Below the pieces are notes generated by a model. That model did not search any database. It had not been told where the DNA came from and was given only the letters and a program-made list of their open reading frames with translations. A DNA stretch of 32,000 bases from a virus. A program made the position numbers and the translations under genes. Below, one piece after another: positions 1 to 31,387 of the stretch (positions are counted from its first letter, which is position 1; every line of letters begins with the position of its first letter). The stretch is taken from positions 1 through 32,000 of IMG/VR virus record IMGVR_UViG_3300002461_001027; one strand, 5' to 3'.

Positions 1-536
1 TGGAAGGGGGAGTTCGAGTGGAAGTTCGTGCCAGCGAGCATGCCACCGGAGGAAACGCTCGACGCGAACACCCACGACACAGCCGACTCGGGGTTCACGC
101 CAGACGAGTCGGCCCCGAAGGCGAGGGTCGGTCCGATGTTGTTCACCCCATCGGGCGACGTCAGGTAGATGGCGTGACGCGGCTTGTTCGTGGACACGTT
201 GTAGCCGCTCCCAAACACGACGAGGCCGACGCCTGCGTCCGGATTGCGGATGGGCTCGCCCGCGTAGATGGTGCCCCGGCCATTGAAGACGCCGCCGTCG
301 TACCAGTACGACGAGCCGCCACCACCGAAGGTCTGCCATGCCGTGCCGTTGTTGTACTTCGGCGCGTTGGTGTCCGTGTCGTAGATGAGCGCGCCTTCGA
401 TGGTGGCGCTGCTCGCGGGCAGCCCAGCCGTGGTGCTGTGGCCGAGCTTGAACATGGTGCCGAGCGTCGCCTGCGAGAAAGCGAACGCACTGGTGAGCAG
501 CAGGAGGGCGAGGAGAATGCGGAGTCGAGGAGTCAT
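1..536 (-). CDS. secreted Gly/Asn-rich beta-protein, 3' end beyond window (fibre/adhesin-like, function unknown)
   Basis: Absent from the track because it runs off the window. ATG 536..534 lies in palindrome copy 530..541. I checked every minus-frame triplet down to position 3 and found no stop. Third positions are almost all G/C. N-terminus MTPRLRILLALLLLTSAFAFSQA is a Sec-type signal peptide. Confidence 0.75.
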   Translation of the reverse strand, partial: MTPRLRILLALLLLTSAFAFSQATLGTMFKLGHSTTAGLPASSATIEGALIYDTDTNAPKYNNGTAWQTFGGGGSSYWYDGGVFNGRGTIYAGEPIRNPDAGVGLVVFGSGYNVSTNKPRHAIYLTSPDGVNNIGPTLAFGADSSGVNPESAVSWVFASSVSSGGMLAGTNFHSNSPF

Positions 537-541
537 GACTT
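530..541. repeat. palindrome copy GAGTCATGACTT (11/12)
   Basis: Central ATG (minus strand) is the start of CDS 1..536. Confidence 0.9.
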
Positions 542-548
542 GGACCTT

Positions 549-1985
549 TCAGCGCGTGATGACGGAGTTGAGTGGGCTGACGATGACCTGAGGCGCAGGC
601 AAGCCCGTGAGGAAGCTGAAGGTGTACGCGGTGCCATCGATGAGCAATTCGTTGGTCACCGTGGAAAAGGCCGGAGACGTGCCGTCAAACAGGACGCGTC
701 CACCGTTTCTCACGTTCACGGCCGTCGTGCATGACTCGAAGACCCACGCCGAGAGCGCATAGCTCTGCCCGATGTCGACACGCACGCCCTCGGAGCAACC
801 CTCGATACGGTTTGTCAGCGTGCTGCTGGAGCGGTACGTGAAGTTGGGCGGCTGCAGAGCGCTACTGCGCAGGCCCGACGCGACGCCGACGCCTGCTGAC
901 GTGCAGTAGACCCATGACCCGCTGACCGGCGACGTCACACCGCTGCCCGGGAGAGACAGCACGGGGTTGAGCCCGCCGTTGCCCGGGGCTCGGAAGATGC
1001 TCTCGGAGTAGAATGGACCGATGCCGTTGTTGACCTGTACGGGGTCCACGTACGTGACGGCCGAGCTACCAGCAGCGAGCGCTTCGACGAGTGAACTCGT
1101 CGCGAAAATCGAGGGGGAGAACACCGGCAACACCGAAGACCACACAACGGCCAGCGCGACACCGCTCGCTGAAGTCGAGGTGACGAAGCTGCGTGAGATG
1201 GTGACGAGCCCCGAGACCGAGACCACAGGCACTGGCGCGCTGACAGTGCATTCGCGCACCGTGATGTTCGCGCTCGTCCCCCACTCGGTCCGCACGGCGG
1301 TCGCTGCTGCGCCAGCGAAGCCGATGCGCGAGATGATGACGTTGCCGGGGCCTAGCACGTTCCGAAAGGTCAAGAGGTTGCTGAAGGTCGCGCTCGGCAC
1401 CTGAACTGCGTATGTCACGCCAACCACCAGCGCCGTGCGCCGGGGGATGGTCACGGCGGTGCCCGTGTTCGTGTCGATGGGGAAGGCCTGTCCGTTGGCG
1501 GCTCCCGACGTCACCGAGAAGAGCTTTCCGTGCAGGTCGCTCGACGTCCACGTCTGCGTCGAGTCGACGACGCTCTGCGGCCCTGCGGCAGCACTGCCAG
1601 CCACGCTGCTCGTGACAGAGCCTGTCACGCTTCCCGTCGCGAGGGTCGCGTTCGTGAGCGTCCCCGCGATGGTGAGCGTGGCGCCTTCGAGCGTGATGTT
1701 CTGCAGGGTCGCTGCGGTCGCGTACGTGCCCGCTGCGACGTTGATGGTGACGTTGTGGCGGATGAAGCGGGGCAGCTTCGCGAAGACGCCGTTCAACGTC
1801 AGGCAGGCTTCGGCGCCACTCGCCGTACAGGCGTTCGAGTCGCTGCCTGTGGGAGCGACGTAGAAGGTGAGGGCGGAGTACGTCTGGTAGGCGCGCTTCT
1901 TGAGGGCGCCACCACGCGTGACAACAGGCTGAGCCGAAGCCCAGCCCGCGAGGATCAACACGAGAACTGCCAGAGTGCGAGTCAT
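549..1985 (-). CDS. secreted repeat-rich protein, parallel beta-helix-like (spike/fibre-like)
   Basis: Track ORF 549..2120 trimmed to ATG 1985 inside exact palindrome 1979..1990. The discarded 45 codons are Arg/Ser-rich and overlap the neighbour. MTRTLAVLVLILAGWASAQP is a signal peptide, followed by T/A/G/V/N repeats such as NVTINVAAGTYATAATLQNITLEGATLTIAG. Confidence 0.8.
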   Translation of the reverse strand: MTRTLAVLVLILAGWASAQPVVTRGGALKKRAYQTYSALTFYVAPTGSDSNACTASGAEACLTLNGVFAKLPRFIRHNVTINVAAGTYATAATLQNITLEGATLTIAGTLTNATLATGSVTGSVTSSVAGSAAAGPQSVVDSTQTWTSSDLHGKLFSVTSGAANGQAFPIDTNTGTAVTIPRRTALVVGVTYAVQVPSATFSNLLTFRNVLGPGNVIISRIGFAGAAATAVRTEWGTSANITVRECTVSAPVPVVSVSGLVTISRSFVTSTSASGVALAVVWSSVLPVFSPSIFATSSLVEALAAGSSAVTYVDPVQVNNGIGPFYSESIFRAPGNGGLNPVLSLPGSGVTSPVSGSWVYCTSAGVGVASGLRSSALQPPNFTYRSSSTLTNRIEGCSEGVRVDIGQSYALSAWVFESCTTAVNVRNGGRVLFDGTSPAFSTVTNELLIDGTAYTFSFLTGLPAPQVIVSPLNSVITR

Positions 1986-1990
1986 GACTC
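1979..1990. repeat. palindrome copy GAGTCATGACTC (exact; 14 bp as CGAGTCATGACTCG)
   Basis: Central ATG is the start of CDS 549..1985. Confidence 0.95.
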
Positions 1991-2013
1991 GCGAGGGTAC
2001 TACAAGTGCCGTC

Positions 2014-30398: not shown

Positions 30399-30470
30399 GA
30401 CCGCTGAGCTAATGCACGAGTCCGAAACGGTCAAGCTCGCGTTGCGAGATTTCGTCTTCCGCCGGGAGAC

Positions 30471-30508
30471 AAGCAAAAACCCCGGGCGCCGTGAAGGCCA
30501 CCCGGGGT
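30471..30508 (-). terminator. intrinsic terminator after 30539..30796
   Basis: Minus strand reads ACCCCGGG-(14 nt)-CCCGGGGT followed by TTTTGCTT. Confidence 0.75.
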
Positions 30509-30538
30509 TGCGTCTGCCTTGAGTCGTTGCGGAATCAG

Positions 30539-30796
30539 CTACTTGCAGGTCGCTTCGCGAAACTCGGAATACAGCTTCGCCGCTTCGGCCTTGTCCTCGG
30601 GAAGGAGGAACAGCGACCAGTACGCACCTTCGACTTCACCTCGGTCGTACCGGACCAGCATGAGGCGGCCGAGGAACCACCAGCACCCGGCGTAGCAGCC
30701 TGCGTCGAAGGCGTCGTTCGGCGTCTTCAGCCGCGCCGTCGTGAAGTAGCCCGTCAGCCACCACTTCAAGCGCTGCCGCACGAGCCGAGGAGTCAT
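30539..30796 (-). CDS. hypothetical Trp-rich 85-aa protein
   Basis: Track ORF. ATG 30796 lies in exact palindrome 30790..30801. An intrinsic terminator follows. Confidence 0.75.
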   Translation of the reverse strand: MTPRLVRQRLKWWLTGYFTTARLKTPNDAFDAGCYAGCWWFLGRLMLVRYDRGEVEGAYWSLFLLPEDKAEAAKLYSEFREATCK

Positions 30797-30801
30797 GACT
30801 C
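30790..30801. repeat. palindrome copy GAGTCATGACTC (exact)
   Basis: Central ATG is the start of 30539..30796. The TGA of 30800..31387 overlaps its upstream arm. Confidence 0.95.
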
Positions 30802-31387
30802 AGGCCACCGGGAACGTGGTGCTCGCCGGGGTGGCGACCTGCTCCTGCGCGCTGTTGATGGCCTCGTTGAGGTCGATCTGCTTCGCGGCCCCCGCCTCCA
30901 CCTTGGGCTCTTCGGCGGCGGGCTCCGTGACCTCCGGCTTCGGCGCGGCGGCCGCTTCCTTCGCCGCCTTGGCGTCAGCCTTCTTCTTCTCGGCAGCGGC
31001 CTTCTTCGCGGCGGCGGCTTCAGCGAGCTTGGCCTTCTTCTCCGCCTCCACCTTCTTGGCCGCCTCCTTCTTCTCGGCCGCGATGTCCTTCTCCAGCTGC
31101 TTGAAGCGCTTCTCGACGCTCTTCGCGTGCGAGTCGGCGATCTTCGCGCCGCTGCTGGTCAGCGACAGCTCGGCGCCGTGCACCACGGCCACGAACTCGC
31201 CCCAGAAGTCCTTCTCCAGCTCCGTCTTCGCGCTGGCGAGGTTCTTCTGCGCGGCGGCGAGGACGTCGGCCTTCGACTTCTCGGCCAGCGCCTTCCAGTC
31301 CTCGGCCGCCTTCATGAGCGCCTCGAACTTCTGCGTCGCCTTCGCGAACTGCGTGAACCCGGCCTTCATCTTCTTCGTCTTCGACAT
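30800..31387 (-). CDS. Lys/Ala/Glu-rich histone-H1-like / coiled-coil protein; first gene of the leftward gene block
   Basis: Track ORF. AAGGAG lies 7 nt upstream of ATG 31387. Low-complexity stretch is EKKEAAKKVEAEKKAKLAEAAAAKKAAAEKKKADAKAAKEAAAAPKPE. Confidence 0.8.
   Translation of the reverse strand: MSKTKKMKAGFTQFAKATQKFEALMKAAEDWKALAEKSKADVLAAAQKNLASAKTELEKDFWGEFVAVVHGAELSLTSSGAKIADSHAKSVEKRFKQLEKDIAAEKKEAAKKVEAEKKAKLAEAAAAKKAAAEKKKADAKAAKEAAAAPKPEVTEPAAEEPKVEAGAAKQIDLNEAINSAQEQVATPASTTFPVA

What the first reader, a model, noticed from the sequence alone, without database searches (positions are those of the whole stretch)
1..31387. Thirty-one kb of unidirectional virus-like genes without any recognisable tailed-phage hallmark or P-loop NTPase
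Across 53 minus-strand genes I could not recognise a terminase, portal, HK97-fold capsid, tail tube/sheath, DNA polymerase, helicase or recombinase catalytic domain. No protein has a convincing Walker A loop.

What the block is rich in:
- Proteins with a single TM anchor (at least 15).
- Two PG-binding proteins and an SLT enzyme, all membrane-anchored.
- Poly-basic C-terminal tails positioned just after TM helices.
- A protamine-like 54-aa protein.
- Three small beta-rich proteins with strong SDs and their own terminators (4745..5134, 19329..19967, 20973..21620).

This combination fits a virion with an internal lipid membrane, whose membrane proteins face the genome with basic tails and carry cell-wall-penetration domains. 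In that case the two roughly 213-aa proteins could be a pair of single-jelly-roll capsid proteins. That would be an unusual or undescribed lineage for a high-GC host.

The fit is weak. Packaging and replication genes may simply lie outside the window, and my failure to recognise folds by eye is not evidence of absence.
Basis: inference. Interest (0 to 1): 0.65.

Follow-up and report, generated by a model that had tools for sequence, protein, structure and literature searches.

The report
Capsid-and-membrane gene block of unknown virus
This 31-kb block looks like the particle-building module of a widespread, undescribed group of large bacterial viruses that appear to use two small jelly-roll capsid proteins and many membrane proteins instead of the head-and-tail machinery of ordinary phages.

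Summary
Window 1..31387 carries about 51 protein genes and 2 tRNA genes, all on the minus strand. Pfam and PHROGs find no terminase, portal, HK97 capsid, tail, polymerase or helicase, and there is no Walker A motif.

The window is the first 32 kb of a 103,928-bp metagenomic contig. The next 10 kb is equally dark.

AlphaFold2 models of the two ~213-aa proteins, 20973..21620 and 19329..19967, are beta-sandwiches. Their Foldseek matches are weak but are nearly all jelly-roll proteins, mostly viral capsid proteins (SPV1 VP4, HHIV-2/SH1, STIV, CCMV, iridovirus).

The 215-aa protein is by far the most conserved gene: 93% identity in a relative whose other genes are 31-65% identical. Its family spans at least 153 clusters at 50% identity, all unnamed.

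The module is syntenic in relatives on contigs of 64-96 kb. The order is transglutaminase-like protease, protamine-like protein, glycine-rich protein, the two jelly-roll genes, tail-anchored membrane proteins, then a cell-wall hydrolase.

In an 80-kb IMG/VR relative, 50 kb read through showed no tailed-phage genes and no convincing P-loop.

Best reading (about 0.55): the morphogenetic module of a new lineage of non-tailed, membrane-containing bacterial viruses. About 62 kb of the source contig was not seen, and no particle has been observed.

The parts
20973..21620 (-). 215-aa candidate major capsid protein (MCP1), single jelly-roll
   Evidence: AF2 model: pLDDT 77, pTM 0.71, about 8 strands plus one helix. 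Foldseek hits are weak but almost all are capsid jelly-rolls: SPV1 6oj0_Z on top, then CCMV and iridovirus/PBCV MCPs, plus SPV1 VP4 at prob 0.85 and CRESS capsids in BFVD. It is the most conserved gene, 62-93% identical where neighbours are 30-65%. The family has 47 close clusters and 153 clusters at 50% identity. A strong terminator follows it.
19329..19967 (-). 212-aa second jelly-roll protein (MCP2 or penton candidate) with two N-terminal helices
   Evidence: AF2 model: pLDDT 79.7. Foldseek: a 373-residue chain of the STIV virion, E=4e-4; HHIV-2 6h82_E and SH1 6qt9_h at prob 0.85-0.89; also nucleoplasmin, TasA, Ena and plant-virus coats. Family of 58 clusters. Adjacent to MCP1 in L019 and L007.
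20110..20871 (-). Endonuclease VII/HNH gene inserted between the two jelly-roll genes
   Evidence: Pfam Endonuclease_7, 2.8e-18. Absent at this site in L007 and L019. Smaller Endonuclease_7 genes sit at the same site in L021 and L024.
20889..20921 (-). Intrinsic terminator-like hairpin after MCP1
   Evidence: 14-bp stem with 10 GC pairs, followed by a T-run.
21765..22352 (-). 195-aa glycine-zipper-like, acidic protein, conserved immediately upstream of MCP1
   Evidence: Orthologs at the same position in L004, L009 and L015. Proteins of similar glycine-rich composition sit at the same position in L019 and L025, by position only.
23405..24676 (-). Basic-protein cluster: 54-aa protamine-like protein (24512..24676), 258-aa basic protein (23710..24486), 81-aa CxxC protein (23405..23650), with a terminator at 23668..23701
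   Evidence: pI 12.0, 10.8 and 8.9. Orthologs in L004, L007, L009 and L015. Small proteins with 29-42% Lys/Arg lie upstream of MCP1 in every relative checked, including L025. Terminator.
25801..26724 (-). 307-aa membrane-anchored transglutaminase-like cysteine protease
   Evidence: Pfam Transglut_core, 1.4e-4. Cys200 (in GDCDD), His239 and Asp263 are invariant in 6 relatives, including the IMG/VR one.
27046..30047 (-). Conserved upstream genes: 152 aa (29589..30047), 762-aa Pro-rich protein with an acidic tail (27294..29582), 82 aa (27046..27294)
   Evidence: Orthologs in L004, L007, L009 and L015. In the Polyangiales MAG contig L006, the 152-aa homolog lies directly upstream of an MCP1-like gene. 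No Pfam or PHROG hits.
30800..31387 (-). First gene of the block: 195-aa Lys/Ala/Glu-rich protein. A divergent gene block starts at 31499 on the plus strand.
   Evidence: Sequence. Gene calls in L001 show the strand switch.
14085..19326 (-). Run of membrane proteins after the capsid genes: two PG-binding proteins with a C-terminal TM helix and polybasic tail (18544..19326, 17809..18507), then 364 aa, 335 aa and 556 aa
   Evidence: PG_binding_1 at 5e-15 and 5e-7. TM helices and tails with 2-14 Lys/Arg. Orthologs in L004, L009 and L012. In L019, 7 of 10 consecutive genes after MCP2 end in a TM helix plus a short basic tail.
13180..14064 (-). 294-aa lysozyme-like / lytic transglycosylase
   Evidence: Pfam SLT 0.0024. 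Goose-type lysozyme E=0.004. Conserved at this position. A GH19 enzyme (L030) and, by my reading of the sequence, a glucosaminidase-like protein (L019) occupy roughly this position.
8201..13174 (-). Variable region of about 17 small genes with two tRNA genes (9184..9260, 9263..9338)
   Evidence: Few orthologs in relatives. tRNAs. Faint ART-PolyVal hit (12779..13174) and weak DUF6283 hit (10742..11167).
5819..8185 (-). 788-aa protein with a soluble N-terminal half, a Cys-rich domain and at least 4 TM segments
   Evidence: TM prediction. Orthologs in L009, L012 and L026. The Cys-rich domain is shared with the 556-aa protein (BLASTP 1e-9).
2969..3559 (-). 196-aa conserved protein near the end of the module
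   Evidence: 38% identical ortholog at L007 18826..19542, which is the last gene there before the strand switch. Fold not tested.
3..2898 (-). Three proteins with N-terminal signal-peptide-like segments (294 aa, 478 aa, at least 229 aa). Candidate variable host-recognition proteins.
   Evidence: Sequences. Lower GC3, 0.81-0.87. No orthologs in the fetched loci. All assemblies break here.

Best explanation
Window 1..31387 is the virion-building (late) module of a large double-stranded DNA virus of bacteria that belongs to an undescribed lineage and is not a tailed phage.

**Shown**
- All genes are co-oriented.
- The two adjacent ~213-aa genes encode jelly-roll-type beta-sandwiches.
- One of them is under far stronger constraint than any other gene.
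- The module order is conserved across relatives down to 33% identity. The order is: 152-aa and 762-aa proteins, transglutaminase-like Cys protease, protamine-like basic proteins, glycine-rich protein, MCP1, MCP2, a run of tail-anchored membrane proteins including peptidoglycan binders, a cell-wall hydrolase, and a large multi-TM protein.

**Inferred**
- MCP1 forms the capsomers of an icosahedral shell.
- MCP2 is a second shell protein or the penton.
- The membrane proteins populate a lipid layer under the shell.
- The PG-binding proteins and the lysozyme-like enzyme open the cell wall at entry or exit.
- The transglutaminase-like protease matures or cross-links virion proteins.
- The protamine-like and other basic proteins condense the DNA into a core.

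No P-loop ATPase lies anywhere near the capsid genes, either here or in relatives. The genome may therefore be enclosed as a nucleoprotein core, as in the archaeal virus SPV1, rather than pumped in by a motor. This last step is the most speculative.
For: **Fold**
- AF2 models have pLDDT 77-80.
- Foldseek neighbours are dominated by jelly-roll capsid proteins: SPV1, HHIV-2, SH1, STIV, CCMV, iridovirus and CRESS viruses.

**Conservation**
- In L009, MCP1 is 93% identical against 31-65% for the other 17 shared genes.
- The MCP1 family has 153 clusters at 50% identity. Most members are 200-240 aa.

**Synteny**
- L004, L007, L009, L021 and L029 share the arrangement around the capsid genes; the more distant or shorter L019, L025 and L030 keep the capsid genes followed by membrane proteins and/or a cell-wall enzyme.
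- MCP1 and MCP2 are adjacent in L007 and L019. Elsewhere they are separated only by mobile endonuclease or small genes.
- MCP1 is tandemly duplicated in L025.

**Membrane module**
-.

**Cell-wall enzymes**
- They hold a fixed position, with non-orthologous replacement: SLT-like here, GH19 in L030, glucosaminidase-like (by my reading) in L019.

**Basic proteins**
- Proteins with 29-42% Lys/Arg lie upstream of MCP1 in all relatives checked.

**Virus-like context**
- The source contig is 104 kb, with almost no Pfam hits over 42 kb.
- The element carries its own tRNAs and a homing-endonuclease insertion.
- In the IMG/VR relative there is an integrase beside the module, plus DNA methyltransferases, PolX and a ligase.

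**Absence of tailed-phage genes**
- PHROGs and Pfam find no terminase, portal, HK97 capsid or tail gene in the window, its 10-kb flank, or 50 kb of the 80-kb relative.
- No conserved Walker A motif was found.
Against: - Foldseek E-values are weak (4e-4 at best for MCP2, 0.006-0.05 for MCP1) and TM-scores are about 0.3.
- Non-viral jelly-rolls (TasA, nucleoplasmin, Ena, PHM) also appear among the MCP2 hits.
- Profiles have no sequence similarity to any solved capsid protein, and MCP1 and MCP2 have none to each other.
- No known prokaryotic jelly-roll virus has a genome above about 31 kb. The contigs here reach 104 kb.
- About 62 kb of the source contig and about 30 kb of the IMG/VR relative were not read. 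They could hold a packaging ATPase or even tailed-phage genes.
- One MCP1 family member gave a stray Phage_TTP_16 (tail tube) hit at E=0.0014, 1 of 70 members.
- The three leftmost proteins have secretion-type signal peptides, which is unusual for virion proteins assembled in the cytoplasm.
- No particle, lipid or proteomic data exist.
Confidence: 0.55

Rival explanations
1. The element is a large tailed phage, possibly near jumbo size. Its terminase, portal, HK97 capsid and tail genes lie in the unread 62 kb. The window would then be an accessory, membrane-directed module (entry, lysis, superinfection exclusion), and the jelly-roll proteins would be receptor-binding, decoration or other minor proteins.
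For: - Only 42 of 104 kb of the source contig and 50 of 80 kb of the IMG/VR relative were read.
- Tailed phages are the overwhelming majority of 60-100-kb bacterial viruses (general knowledge).
- Jelly-roll domains occur in tail fibres and decoration proteins.
- There was one stray tail-tube Pfam hit.
Against: - No PHROG or Pfam structural hit in 92 kb examined across two genomes.
- No Walker A motif near the module in any of about 10 relatives.
- The most conserved gene of the element is the 215-aa jelly-roll, which is what is expected of a major capsid protein and not of a fibre or accessory protein.
- I know of no tailed phage with a conserved 20-30-kb block of capsid-like jelly-rolls, protamine-like proteins and about 10 tail-anchored membrane proteins.
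- In the 80-kb relative, a full tailed-phage morphogenesis module would have to fit into the unread 30 kb.
Confidence: 0.2
2. It is a virus, but with a different architecture. Examples: a pleomorphic or enveloped particle, or a shell built from another protein, with the two jelly-roll proteins acting as vertex or spike proteins or as chaperones for the basic proteins (nucleoplasmin-like).
For: - MCP2 hits include nucleoplasmin cores and the STIV turret or vertex chain rather than a major capsid protein.
- Protamine-like genes lie just upstream.
- There is a very high number of membrane proteins.
- The two proteins are not detectably homologous to each other.
Against: - MCP1's neighbours are major capsid proteins (SPV1 VP4, CCMV, iridovirus).
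- Its extreme conservation, uniform length and terminator-flanked gene fit an abundant lattice-forming protein.
Confidence: 0.15
3. It is not a virus. It would be a large plasmid-like or integrative element that encodes a novel envelope-spanning or cell-surface apparatus, with jelly-roll subunits forming fibres like TasA or Ena.
For: - TasA and Ena fibres are among the MCP2 structural hits.
- PG-binding proteins and an SLT-like enzyme are typical of envelope-spanning machines.
- Relatives are binned into bacterial MAGs.
- One distant relative lies next to host-like genes.
Against: - No secretion or conjugation ATPase, relaxase or replication initiator in 92 kb.
- The jelly-roll proteins lack signal peptides.
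- Gene density, co-orientation, the homing endonuclease, the tRNAs, the protamine-like proteins and the near-absence of Pfam hits are virus-like.
- IMG/VR holds the 80-kb relative as a viral genome.
Confidence: 0.1

Closest known systems
Portogloboviridae (Sulfolobus polyhedral virus 1)
   Same: - Two single jelly-roll capsid proteins: VP4 forms hexamers and VP10 forms pentons (PMC8459092).
- An inner lipid layer with many small membrane proteins.
- DNA held as a nucleoprotein core by a basic protein.
- No recognisable packaging ATPase or polymerase; carries glycosyltransferase and methyltransferase genes.
- SPV1 is the top Foldseek hit for the 215-aa protein in PDB, and VP4 appears in BFVD at prob 0.85.
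   Different: - SPV1 infects hyperthermophilic archaea and has a 20-kb circular genome. Here the hosts have peptidoglycan and the contigs are 64-104 kb.
- There is no sequence similarity.
- Structural scores are weak (E about 0.02-0.05).
- Peptidoglycan-binding and lytic enzymes are present here.
Helvetiavirae: Sphaerolipoviridae (SH1, HHIV-2), Simuloviridae, Matsushitaviridae (Thermus phage P23-77)
   Same: - Two adjacent genes for single jelly-roll capsid proteins, followed by membrane-protein genes.
- An internal membrane (PMC12643093 and PMC12642351).
- The HHIV-2 and SH1 175-residue capsid chains are among the hits of the 212-aa protein.
- One family of this group infects bacteria.
   Different: - These viruses encode an FtsK/HerA-type packaging ATPase, next to the capsid genes as I recall. 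None is present within 10 kb here or in relatives.
- Their genomes are 16-31 kb.
- There is no sequence similarity.
Tectiviridae / Corticoviridae (PRD1, PM2) and other double jelly-roll phages
   Same: - A membrane-containing tailless virion with many small membrane proteins.
- A virion-associated lytic transglycosylase (PRD1 P7, from my own knowledge).
   Different: - Those viruses have one double jelly-roll capsid protein of about 270-400 aa and a packaging ATPase. Pfam and PHROGs find neither here.
- Their genomes are 10-20 kb.
Caudoviricetes (tailed phages of 60-100 kb)
   Same: - Genome size.
- Virus-encoded tRNAs, HNH endonucleases, methyltransferases and an integrase in relatives.
   Different: - No terminase, portal, HK97 capsid, protease/scaffold or tail genes detected in 42 kb of this contig or in 50 kb of a relative.

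Membership tests
Caudoviricetes (tailed phages) | Terminase large subunit (P-loop ATPase plus nuclease) | tested here: not met
   No Pfam or PHROG terminase and no conserved Walker A motif in the window, the 10-kb flank, the regions within 10 kb of MCP1 in about 10 relatives, or 50 kb of the IMG/VR relative. The remaining 62 kb of the source contig was not seen.
Caudoviricetes (tailed phages) | Portal protein and HK97-fold major capsid protein | tested here: not met
   No Pfam or PHROG hit (same calls). Only two proteins were modelled, so a very divergent HK97 fold among the unmodelled proteins is not formally excluded.
Caudoviricetes (tailed phages) | Tail tube, sheath, baseplate or fibre genes | tested here: not met
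   No PHROG tail family was hit. The two small beta-rich proteins match jelly-roll folds, not tail-tube folds. There was one stray Phage_TTP_16 hit, in 1 of 70 family members at E=0.0014.
Helvetiavirae (Sphaerolipoviridae and relatives) | Two single jelly-roll major capsid proteins encoded side by side | tested here: inconclusive
   The fold is supported at moderate model confidence and with weak Foldseek scores. Adjacency is conserved. The vertical orientation and the capsid role cannot be tested here.
Helvetiavirae (Sphaerolipoviridae and relatives) | FtsK/HerA (A32-like) packaging ATPase, next to the capsid genes | tested here: not met
   No convincing Walker A motif within 10 kb of the capsid genes in the window or the relatives scanned. 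No ATPase family in Pfam or PHROGs.
Helvetiavirae (Sphaerolipoviridae and relatives) | Sequence-detectable homology of the capsid proteins to family members | tested here: not met
   Profiles A1, A2 and A3 were searched against all PDB chain sequences, a set that includes the HHIV-2, SH1 and SPV1 entries hit by Foldseek. Nothing relevant appeared at E<=10.
Helvetiavirae (Sphaerolipoviridae and relatives) | Genome of 16-31 kb | tested here: not met
   The source contig is 103,928 bp. Relatives lie on contigs of 64-96 kb.
Portogloboviridae | Single jelly-roll hexamer protein (VP4) plus single jelly-roll penton protein (VP10) | tested here: inconclusive
   SPV1 is the top PDB hit for MCP1 (E=0.055, prob 0.66). 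BFVD VP4 hits at E=0.022, prob 0.85. Oligomeric state is not testable.
Portogloboviridae | Nucleoprotein core formed by a basic DNA-binding protein; no packaging ATPase | tested here: inconclusive
   Protamine-like genes are conserved just upstream of the capsid genes. No ATPase was found in the parts read. Core formation is inferred, and the genomes were not fully read.
Portogloboviridae | Archaeal (Sulfolobales) host, about 20-kb circular genome | tested here: not met
   Peptidoglycan-binding and lysozyme-like genes, bacterial-type ribosome-binding sites and contigs of at least 104 kb.
Membrane-containing virions in general | Lipid in the particle; virion membrane proteins | not testable with these tools
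   Only indirect evidence: about 14 predicted TM proteins in the window, and a conserved run of tail-anchored proteins after the capsid genes.

The most novel reading that the evidence does not exclude
These elements are a new, high-rank group of bacterial viruses with genomes of roughly 60-100+ kb. Their icosahedral shell is made of single jelly-roll proteins over an internal membrane. The DNA is condensed by protamine-like proteins and enclosed without any P-loop packaging motor. This would be a bacterial counterpart of the archaeal SPV1 strategy, at five times the genome size, and it is largely invisible to current virus-detection pipelines.
Probability: 0.3. Interest if true: 0.9.

Novelty: new variant of a known kind. 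Interest (0 to 1): 0.74.

Why it matters
- **Size ceiling.** Tailless, membrane-containing phages are known from few isolates, and none exceeds about 31 kb. A widespread lineage with 64-104+ kb genomes would break that ceiling. Its signature protein spans at least 153 clusters at 50% identity, from groundwater, aquifer and water-filter metagenomes.
- **Viral dark matter.** The lineage is almost absent from GenBank phages and IMG/VR, and it matches no known structural or packaging family in Pfam or PHROGs. This shows that marker-based virus discovery misses whole groups.
- **Packaging mechanism.** If the absence of a packaging ATPase holds for complete genomes, motor-free nucleoprotein encapsidation becomes directly testable in bacteria. 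So far it is seen only in the archaeal virus SPV1.
- **Capsid evolution.** It would add a bacterial branch to the debate on how single and double jelly-roll capsids evolved.

Tried and rejected
**Attempts to read more of the genome**
1. I gave search for homologous proteins a concatenation of six flank proteins, hoping to walk along the contig. It collected 8000 candidates and none scored, so the last homolog search was lost.
2. A JGI metagenome scan with the far-flank 319-aa protein found nothing.
3. IMG/VR scans with MCP2, the close MCP1 alignment A2, and two flank proteins found nothing. Only the distant member P0258 gave an IMG/VR hit.
It returned only a 1.6-kb Polyangiales MAG contig.

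**Similarity searches that found nothing**
5. Megablast of the window against GenBank phages, and tblastn of MCP1, MCP2, the 788-aa protein and the protease against phages (and MCP1 against plasmids), gave no matches.
6. Profile searches against PDB sequences gave nothing.
7. hhalign of MCP1 against MCP2, and of MCP2 against the 196-aa protein, found no similarity. MCP2 against the positional counterpart in L025 gave E=0.13, which is not significant.

**Leads considered and rejected**
8. The Walker-like 'GKT' in the 788-aa protein, and another in its L026 homolog, are rejected. They are at different positions and are not conserved. Other motif hits fall in antisense or low-complexity ORFs.
9. 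The N-terminus of the 762-aa protein resembles an integrase SAM-like domain by eye. BLASTP against the L025 integrase gives E=0.36, so this is not established.
10. Literature searches for a described lineage of this kind found none in the held library.

Full report
**Where the window comes from**

An exact-protein look-up places the window at positions 152-32151 of an ENA metagenome contig of 103,928 bp. The contig is ERZ922817 k127_89534, from an activated-carbon metagenome, run SRR2905843. The window is therefore the left third of a much larger element. The contig, and two independent Logan assemblies, all break within the leftmost gene. GC content is 63-72%.

**Check of the observation**

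*Genes and strand*
- GC3-guided ORF calling agrees with the collection's own gene calls.
- There are about 51 protein genes between 3 and 31387, plus two tRNA genes at 9184..9338. All are on the minus strand.
- Many genes overlap or abut, and many have GGAG-type ribosome-binding sites.
- At 31499 a divergently transcribed block begins.

*Family searches*
- Pfam on the 20 largest proteins, plus the precomputed Pfam marks on the rest, gives only these hits:
  - PG_binding_1 twice.
  - A weak SLT hit.
  - Endonuclease_7.
  - A weak transglutaminase core hit.
  - Faint ART-PolyVal and DUF6283 hits.
- PHROGs on the roughly 50 proteins tested gives only endolysin (the PG-binding domains), endonuclease VII and unnamed families.

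*P-loops*
- A six-frame Walker A scan finds one motif, in the 788-aa membrane protein.
- That motif is not conserved in homologs.

*Other features*
- About 14 proteins have predicted TM segments, and five end in a TM helix plus a basic tail.
- The 54-aa protein has pI 12.
Of the three 'own terminators', the scan confirms only the one after 20973..21620.

**The two ~213-aa proteins**

Both have sizeable unnamed families with no Pfam annotation:
- 58 clusters for the 212-aa protein, at 42-82% identity.
- 47 clusters for the 215-aa protein, at 59-94% identity.

*AlphaFold2 models built on these alignments*

| Protein | pLDDT | pTM | Secondary structure |
|---|---|---|---|
| 212 aa (19329..19967) | 79.7 | 0.66 | two N-terminal helices plus a beta-sandwich |
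| 215 aa (20973..21620) | 77.1 | 0.71 | eight-or-so strands and one helix |

*Foldseek, 212-aa protein against the PDB*
- The top hit is a chain of the STIV virion model (E=4e-4).
- It is followed by TasA, nucleoplasmin, Ena fibres and PHM.
- The 175-residue capsid chains of HHIV-2 and SH1 (prob 0.85-0.89) and plant-virus coats also appear.

*Foldseek, 215-aa protein*
- Scores are weaker (E=0.05-0.5), but the hits are almost exclusively capsid jelly-rolls.
- SPV1 is first, followed by CCMV and the iridovirus and PBCV-1 major capsid proteins.
- In BFVD the hits are CRESS-virus capsids and SPV1 VP4 (prob 0.85).

*What this means*
- Sequence profiles find nothing in the PDB. The two proteins are not detectably related to each other.
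- The fold assignment (jelly-roll, capsid-like, not tail-tube) is therefore supported but statistically modest.

**Comparative evidence**

*Synteny*
- Loci around relatives share the arrangement around the capsid genes; the more distant or shorter L019, L025 and L030 keep the capsid genes followed by membrane proteins and/or a cell-wall enzyme. They come from the Hainich and Rifle aquifers and from other metagenomes, on contigs of 11-96 kb.
- The shared order is:
  1. A 150-aa protein and a 740-860-aa protein.
  2. An 82-aa protein.
  3. A transglutaminase-like protein whose Cys (in a GDCDD motif), His and Asp are invariant.
  4. A small protein with 29-42% Lys/Arg.
  5. A ~250-aa basic protein.
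  6. A glycine-rich protein.
  7. MCP1, then MCP2.
  8. PG-binding, tail-anchored membrane proteins.
  9. Proteins of ~380, ~340 and ~590 aa.
  10. A cell-wall hydrolase.
  11. A ~790-aa multi-TM protein.

*Conservation*
- In L009, MCP1 is 93% identical. The other 17 shared proteins are 31-65% identical.
- A full HMMER search of 1.84 billion cluster representatives finds 153 MCP1-family clusters at E<=1e-3. Most members are 200-240 aa.
- None of the ten looked up carries an informative name. One sits in a Parcubacteria-group bin.

*Distant relatives*
- In the 33%-identical relative L019, the two jelly-roll genes are adjacent. Of the next ten genes, seven encode proteins ending in a TM helix plus a short basic tail. 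A glucosaminidase-like enzyme (my reading of the sequence) follows, and then host-like genes.
- The endonuclease VII gene between the two capsid genes in the window is an insertion. It is absent in L007 and L019. Smaller Endonuclease_7 genes occupy the same site in L021 and L024.

**Search for the missing hallmark genes**

*Right flank of the same contig*
- The 10 kb to the right holds 19 genes on the other strand.
- Only DUF192 is recognisable, and there is no Walker A motif.

*IMG/VR*
- IMG/VR lacks close relatives.
- A distant family member led to IMGVR_UViG_3300037851_000547, which is 80,211 bp at 57% GC.
- I walked 50 kb of this contig, positions 20,308-70,614.
- In order along the contig it contains:
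  - A tyrosine integrase directly beside the module.
  - A transglutaminase-like gene.
  - Two protamine-like genes.
  - A glycine-rich gene.
  - Two tandem MCP1 paralogs.
  - PG-binding membrane proteins.
  - The homolog of the 788-aa protein.
  - A glycosyltransferase and DNA methyltransferases.
  - An SprT-like peptidase and a tRNA-Met gene.
  - A PolX-type polymerase, an ATP-dependent ligase and HNH endonucleases.
- PHROGs on 72 ORFs of this stretch hit no terminase, portal, capsid or tail family.
- The only Walker-like motifs are non-conserved or fall in antisense ORFs.

*Limits*
- A tailed-phage module could still hide in the unread 30 kb of that contig, or in the unread 62 kb of the source contig.

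**Interpretation**

*What fits best*
- The best-supported reading is the virion module of a non-tailed, membrane-containing bacterial virus.
- Four features point to a shell of jelly-roll proteins over a protein-rich membrane:
  - A hyper-conserved small jelly-roll protein.
  - A second jelly-roll gene next to it.
  - A conserved protease.
  - A long run of tail-anchored membrane proteins with cell-wall-binding and cell-wall-cutting domains.

*Closest known viruses*
- Helvetiavirae are close in gene layout, but they carry a packaging ATPase and have genomes of 16-31 kb.
- SPV1 (Portogloboviridae) is close in the fold hits, the apparent lack of an ATPase and the presence of core-forming basic proteins (PMC8459092).
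- Membership in either family is not supported. There is no sequence homology, the host and genome size differ, and the ATPase criterion is failed for Helvetiavirae.

*Which steps are inferred*
- The capsid role, the membrane and especially motor-free packaging are inferences.

*Rivals*
- A tailed phage whose hallmark genes lie in the unread part: about 0.2.
- A virus of another architecture: about 0.15.
- A non-viral element encoding a surface apparatus: about 0.1.

**Host and lifestyle**

- Peptidoglycan-binding and lysozyme-like genes and bacterial ribosome-binding sites indicate a bacterial host.
- Hints toward particular hosts are weak. There is a 1.6-kb Polyangiales MAG contig with a 33%-identical MCP1, a Parcubacteria-bin member, and binned NCBI MAG contigs.
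- The integrase in the IMG/VR relative and the host-like flank in L019 suggest that some members are temperate.

**Novelty**

- tblastn of four core proteins finds nothing in GenBank phages, and MCP1 finds nothing in PLSDB plasmids. The core module proteins match no named Pfam or PHROG family beyond PG-binding, lysozyme-like, endonuclease VII and transglutaminase domains.
- Four literature searches of the held library found no description of this lineage.
- I rate it a new variant of a known kind (jelly-roll, membrane-containing virus). There is a real chance, about 0.3, that it is something more distinct.

Noticed in passing
window 9184..9338 (minus strand): There are two adjacent element-encoded tRNA genes, both above the Rfam gathering score. 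Both have unusual anticodon arms. ARAGORN reads one as tRNA-Ile with anticodon AAT. The other has an oversized anticodon loop of about 8-10 nt and no assignable anticodon; by eye it may be GCA (Cys).
   Followed up: partly
window 20110..20871; L021 10939..11166; L024 5195..5446: The short gap between the two jelly-roll genes is a recurrent landing site for endonuclease VII/HNH genes of different sizes (253 aa here, 75-83 aa in the relatives). Other relatives have unrelated small genes there, or nothing.
   Followed up: partly
window 20973..21620, residues 121-157 of the protein: The most conserved sequence stretch of the whole MCP1 family is EGP..SG(Y/L)G..G...NG(V/I)(P/A)S.AAAP.L. It overlaps the only part of the AF2 model with pLDDT below 50 (residues 129-159). 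This would fit a segment that becomes ordered only in the assembled lattice.
   Followed up: no
window 14085..15755 (residues 378-446) and 5819..8185 (residues 175-256): The 556-aa and 788-aa membrane proteins share a Cys-rich domain of about 80 residues (BLASTP E=1e-9) with no known family.
   Followed up: partly
window 3..2898: The three leftmost proteins have Sec-type signal peptides (for example MTRFLLLLSLLASTAFGQ) and lower GC3. The 478-aa one has beta-helix-like repeats. None has an ortholog in the fetched relatives. The ENA contig and the Logan assemblies all break inside the last of these genes, which may reflect strain-variable receptor-binding genes or a genome end.
   Followed up: partly
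window 12779..13174: A 131-aa protein carries a faint precomputed hit to ART-PolyVal, an ADP-ribosyltransferase domain of phage polyvalent proteins. It lies at the edge of the variable small-gene region.
   Followed up: no
L025 9258..10675 (IMGVR_UViG_3300037851_000547): The distant 80-kb relative has two tandem MCP1 paralogs (220 and 227 aa) instead of one. It also has two Cys-containing protamine-like genes with a repeated G(R/K)KVC(R/A)K motif, and a tyrosine integrase directly upstream of the module.
   Followed up: partly
L019 8463..11547; L030 7813..8742: Relatives carry different cell-wall enzymes downstream of the membrane-protein genes, where the window has its SLT-like enzyme. L030 has a GH19 enzyme and L019 has what reads as a glucosaminidase-like protein. 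In L019 the module is followed by host-like genes (a Cys-rich secreted protein, a collagen-like protein, a UDP-glucose dehydrogenase-like protein), so it may be a provirus.
   Followed up: no
window 27294..29582: The 762-aa conserved protein has an N-terminus that aligns, not significantly (E=0.36), with the SAM-like domain of the integrase encoded next to its counterpart in L025. It also has long Pro-rich spacers and an extremely acidic C-terminal region. It could be a scaffold or size-determining protein, but nothing was established.
   Followed up: partly
L001 1..9900 (source contig beyond window position 32000): The divergent block to the right of the window holds 19 genes. Many have paired CxxC motifs and coiled coils. 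Only DUF192 is recognisable. There are no replication or packaging genes.
   Followed up: partly
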